Translations under genes and position numbers: made by a program
Sequence record: ON528734
DNA length: 64,000 bases
Reading direction: 5' to 3' (one strand)
DNA from: Shigella phage ESh24
In this document: piece after piece, positions 38,617-46,879 of the stretch
How the letters are laid out: each line of letters opens with the position of its first letter
Position numbering within the stretch: the stretch's first letter is position 1
Notes under the pieces: generated by a model
What the model was told of the DNA's origin: nothing
Seen by the model: the letters and a program-made list of their open reading frames with translations, nothing else
The model's database searches: none

Positions 38617-38618
38617 TA

Positions 38619-38642
38619 GGGAGCCTTCGGGCTCCCTTTTTT
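38619..38642 (+). terminator. intrinsic terminator
   Basis: gggagcc-ttcg-ggctccc hairpin followed by TTTTTT. Confidence 0.75.
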
Positions 38643-40105: not shown

Positions 40106-40136
40106 GTTTACAAGACAGTTCCTCTGTGGTACTATA
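40106..40136 (+). promoter_or_regulatory. early-type promoter (GTTTACA … TGGTACTAT) with conserved leader
   Basis: Same cassette as at 23036 and 38667. Confidence 0.5.
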
Positions 40137-41157: not shown

Positions 41158-42048
41158 ATGTCAGTAGTAATTAATAATGTCAATGCAGTAATTAAATCTT
41201 TAGTTAATAAGAAAATGATGAATGAATGGACTGTACTTCGTCGTGGAGAGCCAGATAAATTTTTTCATAGATTTAACCCAACTTTGGATTTGAATGTTAT
41301 TGACAGAGATGTTCATGCAGAAATTTTAGATAAGTTTAAAGTTGATATTGGATTTGGATTAGAAAAACATTTACAGCGAACAAACGGGTCTGGAATGGGT
41401 TTATCTAATCGCATTATGAAAGCCCTTAATAAAATTGGAGCATTGTCTCGTATTAATGCAAGTGAAATTCTTCGCAATTATAATAAAGGCTATGATCTTT
41501 ATGGTCGATTAATGCCGAAATTATCATTTGACCAAATGATCGCGGATTTGTGGGAAAATCAACGACGATTATTAGCATTAGGCGCTCGATTAGCTAAAGG
41601 TCTAGATAAACAAATGATTTTTAAGACCAATAATACAGAAGACCTTAAATGCTTTAAATTTAGTACTCGTGGAGATGATTATTACATCAGAGCTCGCTCT
41701 ACTGATTATGCCAATATGGGTCATCATCTCTGTTTAGCTTTTGAAGTTTTAAAAGAAGCCGGAACATTAGAATATTCATCTGGTGCAAAATGCCCGATTG
41801 GTTCAAGTTGTATTTTAATTTATCGTCCGGATGAATCCAGTTCAACTAAATTGCCTACAAAACCTGTACCAGTTCGTAGTAATGAAAAACATTCTGAACA
41901 AATTGATTATTTTAATAAGCAAATTGAAGAGCTGAATATTTCTATTCAACAGTATGACGATGAAATTTTCAGACTATCTGGATTGAGTAGTAAAGCTAAA
42001 TCTGAGCGTGAAAAATTAATTAAAATTGTTGATTTACTTAAATCTTAA
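41158..42048 (+). CDS. hypothetical protein with C-terminal coiled coil (family member 1)
   Basis: 296 aa from ATG 41158 (RBS gaggaaaat); C-terminal heptad region. Confidence 0.65.
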   Translation: MSVVINNVNAVIKSLVNKKMMNEWTVLRRGEPDKFFHRFNPTLDLNVIDRDVHAEILDKFKVDIGFGLEKHLQRTNGSGMGLSNRIMKALNKIGALSRINASEILRNYNKGYDLYGRLMPKLSFDQMIADLWENQRRLLALGARLAKGLDKQMIFKTNNTEDLKCFKFSTRGDDYYIRARSTDYANMGHHLCLAFEVLKEAGTLEYSSGAKCPIGSSCILIYRPDESSSTKLPTKPVPVRSNEKHSEQIDYFNKQIEELNISIQQYDDEIFRLSGLSSKAKSEREKLIKIVDLLKS

Positions 42049-42056
42049 GGAACACC

Positions 42057-43079
42057 ATGAAAACTCGTTCTCAAATTGAAGATATGGTTCGTAATGCCAG
42101 CTATACTCGTGATGTTATGACATTTTTGTGCCAAAATAATTTAGACCCTGATAAAGTTAATCGTGTTATTCATCACTTTAAGTATACGAATAGCAGTGAA
42201 TGGGTGCGTAATTTTAGTAAAGCAGGGTATATTACGCAAATGACTGCTCGTGAACAGCTCACCGATTTCTGTAAAACTATTGATTATAAAAATCCTCTAT
42301 TTGTTCAAGGTGTTGGTCAAAGTAAGGTCGATTTATCATCTGGATTTTTCAATCCAAATCATTATCGTATTGAATGGAGATTTATTGCTCTATTCCGTAA
42401 ACAATTAAAGCAAATTTTGTCTACTGCTAGTCGATTAAAAGGTTCTGATATTAACTTAAAGAATCTGAAATTTGATGGTTATACTCTTCAGATGGAAGTA
42501 AGACCATTAAAAGAAAATAATAGAACTGCACGAATTAGCTTTAAACCTAATACAAAAAATTCTCTTTCAATTTGTGAATGCCTTAAATCACAGTTGACAG
42601 AAGCATTTAAGTATATGGATGTTGTTGCTGCTGTTCAATCTAAGATTTTACCTCGTTTTGAACGATTTAAGTTAGATACAACAACATATGAACTTGATAT
42701 GATTGTTTCATTTAAATACGATTTTTTGAGAAAGGACGAAGTCCCGCAAGAGAAAAAGCAGGAAGTGCAAGATACCTTAAATTCATCTAATTACTCATCA
42801 AACGATCCTAAATTTTGGATGTATAGCTCAAGCAATATAGATGCATGTAAACTTAATAAAGTGAGTTTTCTTCCTACTGAAAATTCAAATTTTAAACCTG
42901 TAGAAAAATGGCACGCTGACGCGATTGAGAAGTCTCTTAAGGCAGTAGATGATGAACTCGTTAAAGCGACCAATGAAGTGCTAGAAGCTGAAAAGGTGTT
43001 AGAACAAGCTCAGTCAAGGGTTCAAAATCTGACAAAGCAACGTTCTAAACTGAACAATGCACTAAATGCACTGAACTAG
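42057..43079 (+). CDS. hypothetical protein with C-terminal coiled coil (family member 2)
   Basis: 340 aa; N-terminus MKTR…; C-terminal coiled coil …LEAEKVLEQAQSRVQNLTKQRSKLNNALNALN. Confidence 0.65.
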   Translation: MKTRSQIEDMVRNASYTRDVMTFLCQNNLDPDKVNRVIHHFKYTNSSEWVRNFSKAGYITQMTAREQLTDFCKTIDYKNPLFVQGVGQSKVDLSSGFFNPNHYRIEWRFIALFRKQLKQILSTASRLKGSDINLKNLKFDGYTLQMEVRPLKENNRTARISFKPNTKNSLSICECLKSQLTEAFKYMDVVAAVQSKILPRFERFKLDTTTYELDMIVSFKYDFLRKDEVPQEKKQEVQDTLNSSNYSSNDPKFWMYSSSNIDACKLNKVSFLPTENSNFKPVEKWHADAIEKSLKAVDDELVKATNEVLEAEKVLEQAQSRVQNLTKQRSKLNNALNALN

Positions 43080-43108
43080 TTTACTTTGCCACAAGGATGT
43101 GGTATAAT
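43079..43108 (+). promoter_or_regulatory. early promoter (GTTTAC -35, TGGTATAAT -10)
   Basis: Near-consensus spacing and extended -10 upstream of gene 43137. Confidence 0.55.
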
Positions 43109-43136
43109 GTTCTTACTTTCTACTGAGGAGATTAAT

Positions 43137-44138
43137 ATGACTCGTAACGAATATATCAAATCATTCAATAGCGTTATTGATGATAAAGCTATACCGATGT
43201 TTGGCCAAAATAGCGTTCTTTCTATTATTAATCAATGGCTCAATAGTGTTGATGCAAGTATTGTTTCTTCTACTAAATTTATTCATGAAATTCGTAAAAT
43301 TTCTAGCCGTGTAGATAAAGATCTTATCAAGAAAACCTTTAAAGAGTCTCGTCTTCTTTCATATTTGGTTAATCGGGATATTCTTGGTAATTTTGGGAAA
43401 GAAATTAAACGAACCAAAGATGTAGTAGGATATAATTGGTTCGGTGATGTTAATTCTTATCATCTTAATAATAAAGAAGACCCTGAGAATATTTTTACTC
43501 GTCGTTGGATTAGTAATTTCAGACTTTTCAAAGGACAAATTCTAAAATCAGCTTCTAAATTATGTTATGGCGATTATCGTCAAATTCATCCTTTGGCTTC
43601 TGATATGATTATCGTAAAAGAATATGAGCTTGATGAAAATAAAGTAGCTATTTTTGTGAATTATGGATTTTTTACACCAAACGCTAACCAAAAGAATATT
43701 AATAAATTTTTCTCAATTGCTAGCACTATAACTCGTCAGTTAGAGACTGCATTACTTTGTATGGAAACAGTAGAAAATATTCATACATATCCTTTTAAGA
43801 ATATATGCGGATGGGAAGGATATAAAATTGTAATTAGTCTTCGTGAAGTGAAATGTGCTTATTCACCTACTGATAAAGAAATTTACCAACAAAAATGCGA
43901 AGAAATTGTGAATACTCCTAAAGAAGAAACTACCCTTGAGGAACTAATGGATAATCTTGATGATTCGCCTGAACCGGTAGAAATTCGTCCAGAAGTTATT
44001 GCGTTAGAAAAAGCTTATAAAGAAGTTCTAGAAATTTCTAATAAAGCACAGAAAGAATATGAGCAGGCTAAAAGGATTTGGGAAGAATCTGTTAATCGTC
44101 TTGATCGTTTGGAACAAGCTTTACAGTTAATTAAGTAA
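43137..44138 (+). CDS. hypothetical protein with C-terminal coiled coil (family member 3)
   Basis: 333 aa from ATG 43137 (RBS gaggag); C-terminal coiled coil. Confidence 0.65.
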   Translation: MTRNEYIKSFNSVIDDKAIPMFGQNSVLSIINQWLNSVDASIVSSTKFIHEIRKISSRVDKDLIKKTFKESRLLSYLVNRDILGNFGKEIKRTKDVVGYNWFGDVNSYHLNNKEDPENIFTRRWISNFRLFKGQILKSASKLCYGDYRQIHPLASDMIIVKEYELDENKVAIFVNYGFFTPNANQKNINKFFSIASTITRQLETALLCMETVENIHTYPFKNICGWEGYKIVISLREVKCAYSPTDKEIYQQKCEEIVNTPKEETTLEELMDNLDDSPEPVEIRPEVIALEKAYKEVLEISNKAQKEYEQAKRIWEESVNRLDRLEQALQLIK

Positions 44139-44190
44139 TTTAAAGCCAAGGATGGCTCGGAGTATAAACCATTAACCAAGTGAGAAGAAT

Positions 44191-45117
44191 ATGAAAACTC
44201 GTAAACATTATATTGATTATTTTGACAGTCTTATTACTAAACATCGTGATTATCAGATAGGACACAGAACAGTAGTTAATAATATTCTTCGTGATTTTTT
44301 AGACTATATTGGATGGGAAAACCATATTTGTAAAGATACACAAAATGCGTATTCACATTCTCTTGGTTCTTTGCTAGGGTGGTTCAAACGTTCCCGATTA
44401 CTATCTTCTGTGATAGCTGTTAATAATGTTAAAAAATTTATGTATCCAAGCTATATTGAGACTAATGTATCAAATGCTAATGTTGTTACATTTAATATTA
44501 TTAATGACGTGAAAAGAACTTATTTAGAAGAATGGTTTTCTAAAAATAGTAAAGAAAAATTTGCTAGTGAGTTTTCACACGAATTTAATAATAATGTGAA
44601 TATGCTTTTTAAGCATTCTCGTAGACTGTTTTGTCATGGCGATGACCGTACTATTAATGTAAATGTAAAAGATTGGGTTACGGCTAAATTCATTCCATCA
44701 TCACAGAATGGACCATTTGAATTGTCAATTATTGTTTGTGCTCCACATGAAATATATAAAAATCTTCCATATATGAAACCATGTGAAGCTAATAAACATA
44801 ATAAAACGATTCGTTCTTTGACTTATAATCTTCGTACGTTATTGTCTAAAATGGACGTAGTTGAATCCTTTGATGATAATACGAATTATGGTCTTTCACT
44901 GTTTGAAACTAAAGTTGTTATTAAGTTAAAGGACCCTAGTAAATTTAAACCTACGCCAAAATCCAATCATGAAAATGATACTATGAAAGAAGAACGCGAA
45001 TATCTCAATGCTCGTTTGATTGAAGTTGAAGCCCAAATTGCAGAACACACCAAATTGTTAAAAGCTCTTAATGCAAAAGCAAATGGTTTACGTAATGCTA
45101 TTGAGGTATTGAAATGA
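44191..45117 (+). CDS. hypothetical protein with C-terminal coiled coil (family member 4)
   Basis: 308 aa; N-terminus MKTR…; C-terminal coiled coil …[29 protein letters not shown]. Confidence 0.65.
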   Translation: MKTRKHYIDYFDSLITKHRDYQIGHRTVVNNILRDFLDYIGWENHICKDTQNAYSHSLGSLLGWFKRSRLLSSVIAVNNVKKFMYPSYIETNVSNANVVTFNIINDVKRTYLEEWFSKNSKEKFASEFSHEFNNNVNMLFKHSRRLFCHGDDRTINVNVKDWVTAKFIPSSQNGPFELSIIVCAPHEIYKNLPYMKPCEANKHNKTIRSLTYNLRTLLSKMDVVESFDDNTNYGLSLFETKVVIKLKDPSKFKPTPKSNHENDTMKEEREYLNARLIEVEAQIAEHTKLLKALNAKANGLRNAIEVLK

Positions 45118-45431
45118 AAAAGCGTCTATTAGAAGACATTGCAGCTTCAAGTAATTCTAGTCTAATTAAAATTATTATGGCTGGTGAAGAAGACGATCTG
45201 GAAATGCGTGGAAAGATTCATGGTTGTGACGATTTAGATTTTAAACCGCCAGCCTGGGACGCTATTATGGTTATGGTTGAACGTCGCGAAAGGGCTTCTA
45301 AAAACGTTCCTAATTGCCCTGAATGCGGTACTGAACAGGTGCAATTGGTCCATTGGCAGACTAGTAATCTTCGTTATAAATGTCGCCATTGTAAACACCG
45401 ATTTGACCGAGAAGAAAATGACCAAGCGTAA
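45114..45431 (+). CDS. zinc-ribbon-containing small protein
   Basis: 105 aa; CPECG…(17)…CRHCKH four-Cys ribbon at the C-terminus. Confidence 0.55.
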
Positions 45432-45661: not shown

Positions 45662-45925
45662 ATGTTTAAAGTATATGGTTATGATAGCAACATCCATAAA
45701 TGCGTGTATTGTGATAATGCAAAACGTCTTTTGACCGTGAAGAAACAGCCATTTGAATTTATCAACATTATGCCGGAAAAAGGTGTTTTTGATGATGAGA
45801 AAATTGCTGAGCTTCTGACTAAACTAGGTCGTGATACTCAAATTGGATTGACAATGCCGCAGGTATTCGCTCCAGATGGAAGTCATATTGGTGGATTTGA
45901 CCAATTGCGGGAATATTTTAAATGA
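45662..45925 (+). CDS. nrdC: thioredoxin/glutaredoxin (ribonucleotide reductase hydrogen donor)
   Basis: 87 aa; CxxC active site CVYC; same length as T4 NrdC. Confidence 0.85.
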   Translation: MFKVYGYDSNIHKCVYCDNAKRLLTVKKQPFEFINIMPEKGVFDDEKIAELLTKLGRDTQIGLTMPQVFAPDGSHIGGFDQLREYFK

Positions 45926-46137
45926 TGCTTGAAGGAACTGATTATATCCATGACTACCGCGGAAGCGCGGTATATGTAGGTGATGAAGTTGCAGTTTACT
46001 ACGGGTATGGAACTTTGATGACAGCTAAGGTTATTCAAATTAAAAATAATCGTGCTAAACTCGAAGTTTATTATTCTAATGGTGAAAAGTCTATTTCTAA
46101 ATGGAAATATGGCGATTGCATGGTTAAACTGGGGTAA
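45922..46137 (+). CDS. hypothetical protein
   Basis: 71-aa ORF, ATGA overlap with nrdC. Confidence 0.5.
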   Translation: MMLEGTDYIHDYRGSAVYVGDEVAVYYGYGTLMTAKVIQIKNNRAKLEVYYSNGEKSISKWKYGDCMVKLG

Positions 46138-46139
46138 AT

Positions 46140-46310
46140 ATGATTTACGATATTAGTGTATCAAGAACTCCGTCAATGGTTACTATTCCAGCTGAAGAAT
46201 TAGATCGTCTTCATAAAATTGAAGAACTTCTTTGGGAAATTGAATGTGACCTGCCATCAGGACTAGAATCCTGGATTGAATATGAAGAACTTAATAAGCT
46301 TCGGGATTAA
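46140..46310 (+). CDS. small hypothetical protein
   Basis: 56 aa. Confidence 0.4.
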   Translation: MIYDISVSRTPSMVTIPAEELDRLHKIEELLWEIECDLPSGLESWIEYEELNKLRD

Positions 46311-46432
46311 ACCTTGGTGGGCGGCTAGATGGGAAACTGTAGAGCCAGAGCCGGAAGAACCGGTTTACACAGATGAAGAAATAGTATATAATGAACCAAC
46401 AATAAATGACTTAATTGATATGGAGATGGGAC

Positions 46433-46879
46433 ATGATTACAGTAAATAAATGGTTTAGAATTAATCGTGCTGATAATGGTCTTTGTACATACTGGCCAGA
46501 ACTCAATGTAGGCACCGTCTTTAAAGTTCGTCAAATTGCATGTGAAGATCTTGATAGTATAGAATCTGATACTGGAATTATTGAAATTGAACTTTCTGAC
46601 GGAAAGATTATTAATATCTACGATAAGCCAATTACTTACTGGTGTTTGTGGAATAACGAATCTGTCGAAAATGGCGAAATTGAAGAAGTTGTAGAACGAA
46701 TTGATCAAGTTCTTCATAAACCCAAAGCTGAATTCCAAGGTGAACGTATTTCTTATGCTCTAGCTAAATTAGCTGGGCAAGAGAATAATGATGGTTATGA
46801 AGGTAACCTGATGCAAGCTGCGGCAGAATATATTGAATGGCTTGAAACTCAAAAATCTTTTTCTGACCGAGCGTTTTAA
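46433..46879 (+). CDS. hypothetical protein (at the position of T4 pin/49.x genes)
   Basis: 148 aa from ATG 46433 (RBS ggagatggga); the six-frame start at 46415 is TTG. Confidence 0.55.
   Translation: MITVNKWFRINRADNGLCTYWPELNVGTVFKVRQIACEDLDSIESDTGIIEIELSDGKIINIYDKPITYWCLWNNESVENGEIEEVVERIDQVLHKPKAEFQGERISYALAKLAGQENNDGYEGNLMQAAAEYIEWLETQKSFSDRAF

What the first reader, a model, noticed from the sequence alone, without database searches (positions are those of the whole stretch)
41158..45117. Tandem array of four ~300-340 aa proteins each ending in a coiled coil
Four consecutive genes (41158, 42057, 43137, 44191) encode proteins of similar length whose last ~50 residues are heptad-repeat coiled coils ending in a hydrophobic-Lys/Asn tail. 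Two of them start MKTR. The N-terminal ~250 residues are divergent. Each has its own RBS and one has a consensus early promoter (43079-43108). A tandem family with a conserved oligomerisation module and variable N-terminal domains is the pattern expected of diversified effectors or decoys.
Basis: seen in the sequence. Interest (0 to 1): 0.6.

Follow-up and report, generated by a model that had tools for sequence, protein, structure and literature searches.

The report
T4 nrdC.3–nrdC.6 counter-defence paralogue array
Four neighbouring early genes of a T4-like phage are old duplicates of one gene, each encoding a globular head on a coiled-coil tail; one of them (nrdC.5) is already known to disarm the bacterial immune protein Dsr1, so the other three are good candidates for undiscovered anti-immunity genes.

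Summary
The window is a Tequatrovirus, about 96% identical in DNA to T4. The four ORFs are one-to-one orthologues of T4 nrdC.6, nrdC.5, nrdC.4 and nrdC.3 (296, 340, 333 and 308 aa). Each ends in a roughly 50-residue heptad helix, in the same register counted from the C-terminus.

The interpretation needs one correction. These are not variable heads fused to a shared tail. They are full-length paralogues. With the last 60 residues removed, the N-domains still link through intermediate subfamilies (hhalign P from 1e-6 to 1e-14; 70 negative controls gave P of 0.011 or higher). A Foldseek search with a confident NrdC.4 model also recovers NrdC.6- and NrdC.3-type proteins.

The superfamily is confined to Straboviridae. 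It has about 30 representatives at 50% identity among 1.84 billion proteins. It sits at a fixed locus in 1 to 4 copies.

- **Dispensability:** the genes are non-essential.
- **Plasticity:** they undergo deletion, chimera formation and replacement of the N-domain allele.
- **Neighbourhood:** they lie among proven anti-defence genes.
- **Known function:** T4 NrdC.5 is published as an anti-Dsr1 factor.

Best reading: a diversified family of oligomeric early counter-defence proteins. The mechanism is inferred, not shown. The fold has no significant match among solved structures; there is only a weak resemblance to tail-terminator proteins.

The parts
41158..42048 (+). nrdC.6 orthologue, 296 aa (phrog_2257; homologues carry Pfam PF26899). 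Globular N-domain, linker and C-terminal heptad helix.
   Evidence: 98% identical to T4 NrdC.6 over residues 1-259. for membership of the superfamily.
41899..42045 (+). Coiled-coil tail of NrdC.6 (last 49 aa, ...EREKLIKIVDLLKS).
   Evidence: 12/14 a/d positions hydrophobic, shuffle p<0.0005; shared tail motif.
42057..43079 (+). nrdC.5 orthologue, 340 aa (Pfam DUF7235 PF23882, 401 bits; phrog_2351). This is the member with a published anti-Dsr1 phenotype in T4.
   Evidence: 94% identical to T4 NrdC.5. PMC9391042.
42930..43076 (+). Coiled-coil tail of NrdC.5 (...TKQRSKLNNALNALN).
   Evidence: 13/14, p<0.0005; helix 281-339, pLDDT 78-92.
43080..43108 (+). T4-type early promoter match, TTTACT-N17-(TG)TATAAT, in the 57-nt gap before nrdC.4. 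Stem-loop candidates lie at 43055-43073 and 43087-43104. It fits the PST/T4 PeSL promoter consensus TTTACW-N17-TAYWAT.
   Evidence: fPS-65 annotates a predicted early promoter at the syntenic position. Consensus from PMC4122927.
43137..44138 (+). nrdC.4 orthologue, 333 aa (phrog_1435; homologues carry PF26897). In the model, the alpha/beta domain spans 1-235, the acidic low-confidence linker 236-284 and the helix 285-332.
   Evidence: 96% identical to T4 NrdC.4; pLDDT 82.9, pTM 0.68.
43989..44135 (+). Coiled-coil tail of NrdC.4 (...NRLDRLEQALQLIK).
   Evidence: 12/14, p=0.001..
44191..45117 (+). nrdC.3 orthologue, 308 aa (phrog_1435, the same PHROG as nrdC.4). Its stop overlaps the start of nrdC.2 (45114).
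   Evidence: 94% identical to T4 NrdC.3. C-D hhalign P=3e-14.
44300..45000 (+). Allele-replacement segment inside nrdC.3 (N-domain). It is 49-72% identical in DNA to phage WL-3, while flanks are 90-97% and the coiled-coil part (45001 onward) is 99%.
   Evidence: One search shows the allele classes in Tequatrovirus-type records: 90-97%, about 62% and about 57% aa identity.
44968..45114 (+). Coiled-coil tail of NrdC.3 (...[14 protein letters not shown]). It is nearly invariant across N-domain alleles.
   Evidence: 11/14, p=0.0095..
40107..40135 (+). Upstream early-promoter match (TTTACA-17-(TG)TACTAT) before nrdC.8. It is the likely start of the transcript that reads through nrdC.8, nrdC.7, nrdC.6 and nrdC.5.
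   Evidence: fPS-65 annotates a predicted early promoter here. Read-through is inferred.

Best explanation
The four genes are ancient tandem duplicates of one Straboviridae-specific gene. This report calls the group the NrdC.3-6 superfamily.

Each encodes a soluble early protein with three parts:
- a basic globular alpha/beta head of about 235 residues;
- a flexible, variable linker;
- a C-terminal amphipathic heptad helix of about 50 residues that most likely drives oligomerisation.

The family most likely serves counter-defence. Each paralogue's head would bind and neutralise a different host immune protein, and the coiled coil would make the inhibitor multivalent.

What is shown:
- paralogy, domain architecture and early-promoter context;
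- dispensability in the laboratory;
- rapid gain, loss and allele replacement;
- the anti-Dsr1 phenotype of T4 NrdC.5.

What is inferred:
- that the 94%-identical orthologue here also blocks Dsr1;
- that NrdC.3, NrdC.4 and NrdC.6 have analogous targets;
- that inhibition is by direct binding;
- that the tail self-associates.
For: **Identity.** The window is 96% identical to T4 across the region, and the four ORFs are one-to-one orthologues of nrdC.6 to nrdC.3.

**Paralogy of the heads, with the last 60 aa removed.** hhalign P values:
- nrdC.4-nrdC.3: 3e-14
- nrdC.6-subfamily E: 4e-10
- nrdC.5-E: 8e-6
- nrdC.5-H: 9e-8
- nrdC.5-F: 5e-6
- nrdC.4-E: 3e-7
- nrdC.4-G: 1e-7

The alignments are collinear and start at the shared motif F-K-x-S/A-R/G-L-L-S. 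Seventy control comparisons with unrelated ORFs of the window gave P of 0.011 or higher.

**Structure.** The NrdC.4 model has pLDDT 82.9. Searched by Foldseek against BFVD, it recovers the following at probability 1.0:
- fPS-65 NrdC.3 (E 1.6e-8);
- JS10 NrdC.6 (E 2.8e-5);
- 300-370 aa proteins of Acinetobacter, Enterobacter, Pectobacterium, Erwinia, Serratia and Klebsiella T4-like phages.

**Tail.** Heptad statistics and the shared motif are.

**Function.** nrdC.5 supplied in trans rescues a T4 deletion mutant on Dsr1-bearing cells (PMC9391042).

**Neighbourhood.** Nearby genes are published anti-defence or host-protease factors:
- nrdC.1, anti-Septu (bioRxiv 10.1101/2025.11.20.689424);
- gp49.2, anti-OLD (PMC13096335);
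- pin, annotated as an inhibitor of host Lon protease in the T4 record.

**Accessory behaviour.**
- All four genes are non-essential in T4 transposon data.
- Copy number is 4 in Tequatrovirus, 3 in NHEP10, whose nearest nrdC.3-allele relative APCEc01 is a Mosigvirus, and 1 in Kanagawavirus IME523.
- ACG-C40 has lost three of the four.
- Natural chimeras and internal duplications exist.
- The nrdC.3 head has been replaced while its tail stays 99% identical.

**Localisation.** No transmembrane segment was found.
Against: - Only one of the four has any phenotype, and even for that one the mechanism is unknown. No binding data exist.
- HIDEN-SEQ screens reported no phenotype for nrdC.3 to nrdC.6. 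In the one comparison table read, none differed significantly (partial reading).
- The NrdC.5 model was poor (pLDDT 56), so its link to the others rests on profile comparisons through intermediates, shared motifs, the tail and gene position.
- Oligomerisation was not tested. The a/d positions contain many Ala and aromatic residues, which is atypical for a simple parallel dimer (read by eye).
- The heads are basic (net +8 to +10). That would equally suit nucleic-acid binding.
Confidence: 0.55

Rival explanations
1. The conserved C-terminal helix is not a self-association module. It is a docking motif that brings all paralogues to one common partner, either a host hub protein or a phage protein. 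The heads then supply different activities at that site.
For: The extreme C-terminus keeps a specific motif (..QRxKLxxA(I/L)xxLK) across subfamilies that share under 20% identity in the head. That is more conservation than a heptad pattern alone requires. The tail of nrdC.3 stays about 99-100% identical while the head is swapped.
Against: Within each orthologous group, the rest of the tail is group-specific: nrdC.6, nrdC.5, nrdC.4 and nrdC.3 each have their own tail sequence, conserved out to the distant phage NHEP10. That pattern is what homo-oligomer specificity predicts. No partner is known.
Confidence: 0.15
2. The four proteins assemble through their tails into one hetero-oligomeric complex with a single function. 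In that case they are subunits, not independent effectors.
For: There are four tails with the same heptad register and a shared terminal motif. The genes are adjacent and probably co-transcribed from two early promoters.
Against: - Copy number varies from 1 to 4 between genera, and ACG-C40 keeps only nrdC.6.
- The deposited T4 reference has NrdC.6 without its tail.
- nrdC.5 alone in trans was enough to rescue the deletion mutant.
Confidence: 0.1
3. They are early host-takeover or nucleic-acid-binding proteins unrelated to immunity, for example modulators of host DNA, RNA or nucleotide metabolism. The Dsr1 effect of NrdC.5 would then be indirect.
For: The heads are basic, with pI about 9.2 for three of the four. 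The genes lie in the nrdC / nrdD / gene 49 region and are expressed early. The mechanism of NrdC.5 has not been published.
Against: - No match to any DNA- or RNA-binding or enzymatic family in Pfam, PADLOC or PDB sequences.
- The genes are dispensable in laboratory hosts.
- They show hypervariable heads and presence/absence polymorphism, which is typical of host-specific accessory genes.
Confidence: 0.15
4. There is no real family. The resemblance is generic coiled-coil composition at the ends of four unrelated ORFs.
For: Direct pairwise BLASTP is non-significant for most pairs. Direct hhalign values for nrdC.6 against nrdC.5, nrdC.4 and nrdC.3 are only 0.002 to 0.3.
Against: - Tail-free profile comparisons through intermediates reach 1e-6 to 1e-10, against a control floor of 0.011.
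- Motifs are collinear.
- Structural matches exist between independently modelled members.
- PHROGs already merges nrdC.3 and nrdC.4.
Confidence: 0.03

Closest known systems
T4 NrdC.5 (Pfam DUF7235, PF23882), the anti-Dsr1 factor of Srikant, Guegler and Laub 2022 (PMC9391042)
   Same: The 42057 product is its orthologue: 94% identity, same length, same position, and a Pfam score of 401 bits against a cut-off of 30. The other three ORFs are its paralogues.
   Different: The paper treats nrdC.5 as a single uncharacterised early gene. It describes neither the paralogous array, nor the coiled-coil tail, nor the wider Straboviridae superfamily. Anti-Dsr1 activity of this window's allele was not tested.
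DSAD1 of phage SPbeta, the inhibitor of the DSR2 sirtuin defence (PMC11087589, PMC10973363 and others listed)
   Same: Functional analogy only. It is a phage protein that lets the phage escape a defence-associated sirtuin NADase, and according to those abstracts it acts by binding the defence protein.
   Different: It targets a different system (DSR2, not Dsr1) and comes from a different phage lineage. No sequence or fold relationship was tested here. DSAD1 is not described there as belonging to a tandem paralogue family.
Anti-defence gene clusters in phage accessory regions: the T4 dmd-tifA-adfA 'anti-TA island' (PMC9391042) and the hyperplastic regions of T4-like genomes (PMC4122927)
   Same: These are clusters of small to mid-size early, non-essential genes with host-specific benefit. 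They are bounded by early promoter/stem-loop elements and show frequent indels and replacements. The neighbours nrdC.1 and gp49.2 are proven inhibitors.
   Different: Here four members of the cluster are paralogues of one another. The genes in the clusters named above were not compared with one another here.
Phage tail terminator / tail completion proteins (lambda gpU 3fz2, T5 p142, the SPP1 gp17-like protein of HFTV1, GTA 6tba)
   Different: Sequence identity is 12% or less in all but one hit (17%). Foldseek against the PDB finds nothing significant (best E 0.039; gpU at 0.24). Other two-layer alpha/beta proteins score similarly. NrdC.3-6 are early genes carrying an extra helical subdomain and a coiled-coil tail. 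This is a fold-level resemblance at most.

Membership tests
T4 NrdC.5 / DUF7235 (PF23882) | Full-length match to the Pfam model above the gathering score. | tested here: met
   The 42057 product scores 401.2 bits (cut-off 30) over residues 1-340. The other three ORFs do not match this model.
T4 NrdC.5 / DUF7235 (PF23882) | Orthology to T4 nrdC.5: high identity and a conserved position between nrdC.6 and nrdC.4. | tested here: met
   94% identity over 340 aa. The gene order nrdC.8-.7-.6-.5-.4-.3-.2-.1-nrdC is identical.
T4 NrdC.5 / DUF7235 (PF23882) | Neutralises Dsr1-mediated defence. | not testable with these tools
   The phenotype is published only for the T4 allele (PMC9391042).
NrdC.3/NrdC.4 family (phrog_1435; Pfam PF26897 on homologues) | Full-length match to the family profile. 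| tested here: met
   43137 product: E 2.6e-169. 44191 product: E 2.8e-101, both against phrog_1435. All homologues of the 43137 product carry PF26897. The local Pfam copy lacks that model.
NrdC.6 family (phrog_2257; Pfam PF26899 on homologues) | Full-length match to the family profile. | tested here: met
   41158 product: E 3.7e-152 against phrog_2257. Its homologues carry PF26899.
Single NrdC.3-6 superfamily (proposed here) | Homology of the N-terminal domains independent of the coiled coil. | tested here: met
   Tail-free hhalign links through subfamilies E to H give P from 1e-6 to 1e-14. Controls gave 0.011 or higher. Foldseek on BFVD supports it. The nrdC.5 link is the weakest: direct to nrdC.4 7e-4, via H 9e-8.
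Coiled-coil oligomerisation module | Heptad periodicity of hydrophobic residues in a long uninterrupted helix. | tested here: met
Coiled-coil oligomerisation module | Actual self-association, and the oligomeric state. | not testable with these tools
   Only monomer prediction was available.
Tail terminator / completion protein fold (gpU-like) | Significant structural superposition on solved members. | tested here: inconclusive
Thioredoxin (the label 'thioredoxin, phage-associated' given to these ORFs in many GenBank records) | Thioredoxin-fold domain or CxxC active site detectable by profile. | tested here: not met
   None of the four matches a thioredoxin or glutaredoxin family in Pfam at E up to 1. 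The predicted fold is not thioredoxin-like. The label appears to have spread from the neighbouring nrdC gene.
DSAD1-type anti-sirtuin inhibitor | Sequence or fold similarity to DSAD1. | not tested

The most novel reading that the evidence does not exclude
The heads of NrdC.3-6 are early-expressed mimics of a virion protein, with a tail-terminator or tail-tube-like alpha/beta sandwich displayed as an oligomer on a coiled-coil stalk. They would act as competitive decoys, occupying the sensor domains of immune proteins that recognise late structural proteins. For Dsr1 that would be its Avs7-type sensor, which detects major capsid protein (PMC13581612). The sensors would then be blocked before the real triggers are made. 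On this reading the tandem array is a panel of decoys for different pattern-recognition receptors.
Probability: 0.1. Interest if true: 0.8.

Novelty: new member of a known kind. Interest (0 to 1): 0.45.

Why it matters
NrdC.5 is one of the few known inhibitors of a sirtuin-type abortive-infection system, and its mechanism is unknown. It has three paralogues next door and a superfamily across T4-like phages of Escherichia, Klebsiella, Enterobacter, Acinetobacter and other hosts. That gives three immediate candidates for new anti-defence genes.

It also gives a defined domain plan for mutagenesis: head, linker and coiled coil. Natural variants can guide target mapping:
- swapped nrdC.3 heads;
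- the tail-less NrdC.6 of the deposited T4 sequence;
- chimeras between nrdC.5 and nrdC.3.

Finally, it removes a widespread misannotation of these ORFs as 'thioredoxin'.

Tried and rejected
- **Direct BLASTP among the four.** Only nrdC.4-nrdC.3 was significant.
- **First full-length hhalign.** It gave a 95.7% nrdC.5-nrdC.3 hit that proved non-collinear, and I discarded it as an artefact of low Neff and the coiled coil. I then repeated everything without the tails and with deeper subfamilies.
- **hmmsearch between the first shallow family profiles.** Suggestive only: per-sequence P of 1e-4 to 1e-5, taken as the best of many family members.
- **AlphaFold2 of NrdC.5 with a family-only alignment.** Chosen to stay independent of the other paralogues, but confidence was too low (pLDDT 56) for a fold search.
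- **afdb50 fold search.** The library was unavailable.
- **Sequence libraries.** PDB sequence profile search found no hit. PADLOC gave only a coiled-coil-type match to BrxC at E 0.004, which I dismissed. Pfam gave only weak coiled-coil families for the tails.
- **NrdC.8 as a short fifth member.** Rejected: tail HMM E 1.5. NrdC.10 as a member was also rejected: control P 0.061.
- **DNA-level repeats between the four genes.** None beyond a 30-nt, 73% match at the GD.R motif of nrdC.4 and nrdC.3. The duplications are therefore old.
- **MotA-type middle promoter inside the array.** None found with the pattern used.
- **P0239.** This 1480-aa hit of the exhaustive search is a repetitive protein, with the same ~90-aa unit repeated in tandem, that matches a short helical part of the profile. 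It is not a family member.

Full report
**What the window is.** The 3.98-kb stretch matches 506 phage records, almost all Tequatrovirus, at 90-97% DNA identity. It is 95.9-96.0% identical to the T4 records and at most 96.7% to any record. Laid over the T4 reference, the four ORFs are nrdC.6 (41158-42048), nrdC.5 (42057-43079), nrdC.4 (43137-44138) and nrdC.3 (44191-45117). They are embedded in the order nrdC.11.10.9.8.7, [.6.5.4.3].2.1, nrdC, 49.x, pin, 49. Protein identity to T4 is 98% (over the first 259 aa), 94%, 96% and 94%. So these are known T4 ORFs, annotated 'hypothetical' in T4 and mislabelled 'thioredoxin' in many other records.

**Check of the observation.**
- Coordinates, lengths (296, 340, 333 and 308 aa), the MKTR starts of two genes and the Shine-Dalgarno-like stretches are all as described.
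- In the last 49 residues, hydrophobic residues occupy 12/14, 13/14, 12/14 and 11/14 of the a/d positions. Shuffle p is 0.01 or less in every case. The register is identical counted from the C-terminal ...LK/LN.
- AlphaFold2 draws one long terminal helix in NrdC.4 (residues 285-332) and one in NrdC.5 (residues 281-339).
- Aligned across all subfamilies, the tails share ..QRxKLxxA(I/L)xxLK.
- The promoter match at 43080-43108 (TTTACT-17-TG-TATAAT) is real. A predicted early promoter is annotated at the same place in fPS-65. A second one lies before nrdC.8.

**Are the heads related?** Direct BLASTP sees only nrdC.4-nrdC.3 (E 5e-4). PHROGs already places those two in one family.

A MAFFT alignment of the three database families shows collinear motifs in all four proteins:
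- F-K-x-S/A-R/G-L-L-S...IL..F;
- a helix ending A-S/G-R/K-L..G-D/L;
- a later helix QL..AL..M..V.

An exhaustive HMMER search of 1.84 billion cluster representatives with the merged profile found only 30 proteins at E below 1e-3. So the family is narrow. The search also supplied intermediate subfamilies, named E to H here.

With the last 60 residues cut from every sequence, profile-profile comparison gave:

| Pair | hhalign P |
|---|---|
| nrdC.4-nrdC.3 | 3e-14 |
| nrdC.6-E | 4e-10 |
| nrdC.4-E | 3e-7 |
| nrdC.4-G | 1e-7 |
| nrdC.5-H | 9e-8 |
| nrdC.5-F | 5e-6 |
| nrdC.5-E | 8e-6 |
| E-G | 4e-8 |

All these alignments start at the first shared motif. Seventy comparisons of unrelated ORFs from the same window against the same profiles never went below P = 0.011.

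Independent structural evidence agrees. The NrdC.4 model (pLDDT 82.9, pTM 0.68) retrieves, by Foldseek from BFVD, NrdC.3 of fPS-65 (E 1.6e-8) and NrdC.6 of JS10 (E 2.8e-5). It also retrieves 300-370 aa proteins of T4-like phages of Acinetobacter (two with adjacent UniProt accessions in Acj61), Enterobacter, Pectobacterium, Erwinia, Serratia and Klebsiella, all at probability 1.0.

The NrdC.5 model was built from its own shallow family to avoid circularity. It is poor (pLDDT 56), but it shows the same order of elements in the core (helix, strands, long helix, two strands, linker, terminal helix).

I conclude that all four are full-length paralogues. The nrdC.5 link is the least direct.

**Anatomy.** In NrdC.4:
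- residues 1-84 form a small helical bundle;
- residues 88-235 form an alpha/beta sandwich;
- residues 236-284 form a low-confidence acidic linker;
- residues 285-332 form the tail.

The heads carry net charge +8 to +10. Three of the proteins have pI about 9.2. No transmembrane segment is present.

**Evolutionary behaviour.**
- The family occupies a fixed locus between nrdC.10/.8 and nrdC.2/nrdC. Copy number varies: four in Tequatrovirus, three in NHEP10, one in Kanagawavirus IME523 and at least two in Acj61 (Twarogvirinae).
- NHEP10's nearest nrdC.3-allele relative, APCEc01, is a Mosigvirus.
- ACG-C40 has a deletion joining nrdC.5 codon ~70 to the end of nrdC.3, leaving only nrdC.6 intact.
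- P0056 is an in-frame nrdC.5/nrdC.3 chimera. Sf25 NrdC.6 carries an internal duplication of about 82 aa.
- nrdC.3 exists in allele classes of 90-97%, about 62% and about 57% identity among otherwise near-identical genomes.
- Against WL-3, DNA identity falls to 49-72% exactly over the nrdC.3 head (44300-45000) and returns to 99% in the tail.
- Each orthologous group keeps its own tail sequence out to the distant phage NHEP10.
- No DNA repeats remain between the paralogues, so the duplications are old.

**Function.**
- T4 nrdC.5 expressed in trans restores plating of a T4 deletion mutant on MG1655 carrying ECOR17 dsr1. Deleting dsr1 in ECOR17 has the same effect (PMC9391042).
- Dsr1 is a sirtuin NADase. 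Its Avs7-type sensor recognises phage major capsid protein (PMC13581612).
- Neighbouring genes are proven inhibitors: nrdC.1 against Septu and gp49.2 against OLD. pin is annotated as an inhibitor of host Lon protease.
- All four genes are non-essential in T4 transposon sequencing.
- The region is one of the hyperplastic, early-promoter-rich accessory regions of T4-like genomes. The 43080 promoter fits the published PST/T4 PeSL consensus (PMC4122927).

**Most likely mechanism.** The proteins are early, soluble and oligomeric inhibitors. Their diversified heads each bind a host immune protein, and the coiled coil supplies multivalency. Paralogy, architecture, accessory behaviour and the NrdC.5 phenotype are shown. 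Direct binding, self-association and any role for NrdC.3, NrdC.4 or NrdC.6 are inferred.

Rival readings that remain open:
- the tail docks on a common partner;
- the four form one hetero-oligomeric complex;
- the proteins have a non-immune host-takeover role.

'Chance coiled-coil composition' is excluded.

**Novelty.** The genes and the NrdC.5 phenotype are already known. No paper in the searched library names nrdC.3 or nrdC.6; nrdC.4 is mentioned once, and only in passing. What is new here:
- the unification of three separate Pfam/PHROG families into one superfamily;
- its domain plan;
- its spread across Straboviridae;
- the evidence for head-specific allele replacement.

This makes it a new set of members of a known kind, phage counter-defence proteins, of moderate interest.

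Noticed in passing
window 41158-42048 compared with L001 4025-4852 (T4 NC_000866): The T4 reference annotates NrdC.6 as 275 aa. It diverges from the 296-aa protein after residue 259 (...QIEEL then IFLFNNMMMKFSDYLD), so the deposited T4 sequence encodes a version without the coiled coil. ACG-C40, WL-3 and the T4 stock used for HIDEN-SEQ (an 891-nt gene) have the full-length form. This is either a strain polymorphism or an old sequencing error.
   Followed up: partly
L002 5802-6213 (phage ACG-C40): A natural deletion joins the first ~70 codons of nrdC.5, out of frame, to the last ~65 codons of a WL-3-type nrdC.3. It removes nrdC.4 and most of the two flanking paralogues.
   Followed up: yes
P0056 (299 aa, metagenome) and P0120 (378 aa, Shigella phage Sf25): P0056 is an in-frame chimera: NrdC.5 residues 146-272 followed by NrdC.3 residues ~134-308, joined at a short NKV/NNV microhomology. 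P0120 is NrdC.6 with residues 177-259 duplicated in tandem.
   Followed up: partly
window 41158-45117 and homologues: Many GenBank, UniRef and RAST-type records call these four ORFs and their neighbours 'thioredoxin, phage-associated'. None of the four has any thioredoxin signal. The label seems to have spread from the adjacent nrdC gene.
   Followed up: yes
window 45900-46300: DNA identity to T4 drops to 45-63% here, while flanks are 91-99%. The small ORFs after nrdC (45922-46449) differ from T4 49.3/49.2, the locus that encodes the anti-OLD protein Gp49.2 in T6. This phage may carry a different cassette there.
   Followed up: no
window 45114-45431 (nrdC.2 orthologue): The 105-aa product has two CxxC pairs and weak matches to many zinc-ribbon families (best DUF7129, E 1.3e-4). 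Its start overlaps the nrdC.3 stop (ATGA).
   Followed up: no
window 43055-43108: The early promoter before nrdC.4 has stem-loop candidates both just upstream (43055-43073, inside the codons for the NALNALN tail of NrdC.5) and between its -35 and -10 boxes (43087-43104). This resembles the promoter-early-stem-loop (PeSL) elements proposed to mediate gene shuffling in T4-like phages.
   Followed up: partly
window 43137-44138, residues ~244-283 of NrdC.4: The linker of NrdC.4 is strongly acidic (net -10 over 40 residues), whereas the linkers of the other three are neutral to slightly basic. In NrdC.5 the linker is the most variable part among close relatives and carries indels.
   Followed up: no
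window 38618-38637: A strong bidirectional terminator-like hairpin (AGGGAGCC-TTCG-GGCTCCCT followed by a T run) sits just before the promoter-like site and start of the nrdC.10 orthologue.
   Followed up: no
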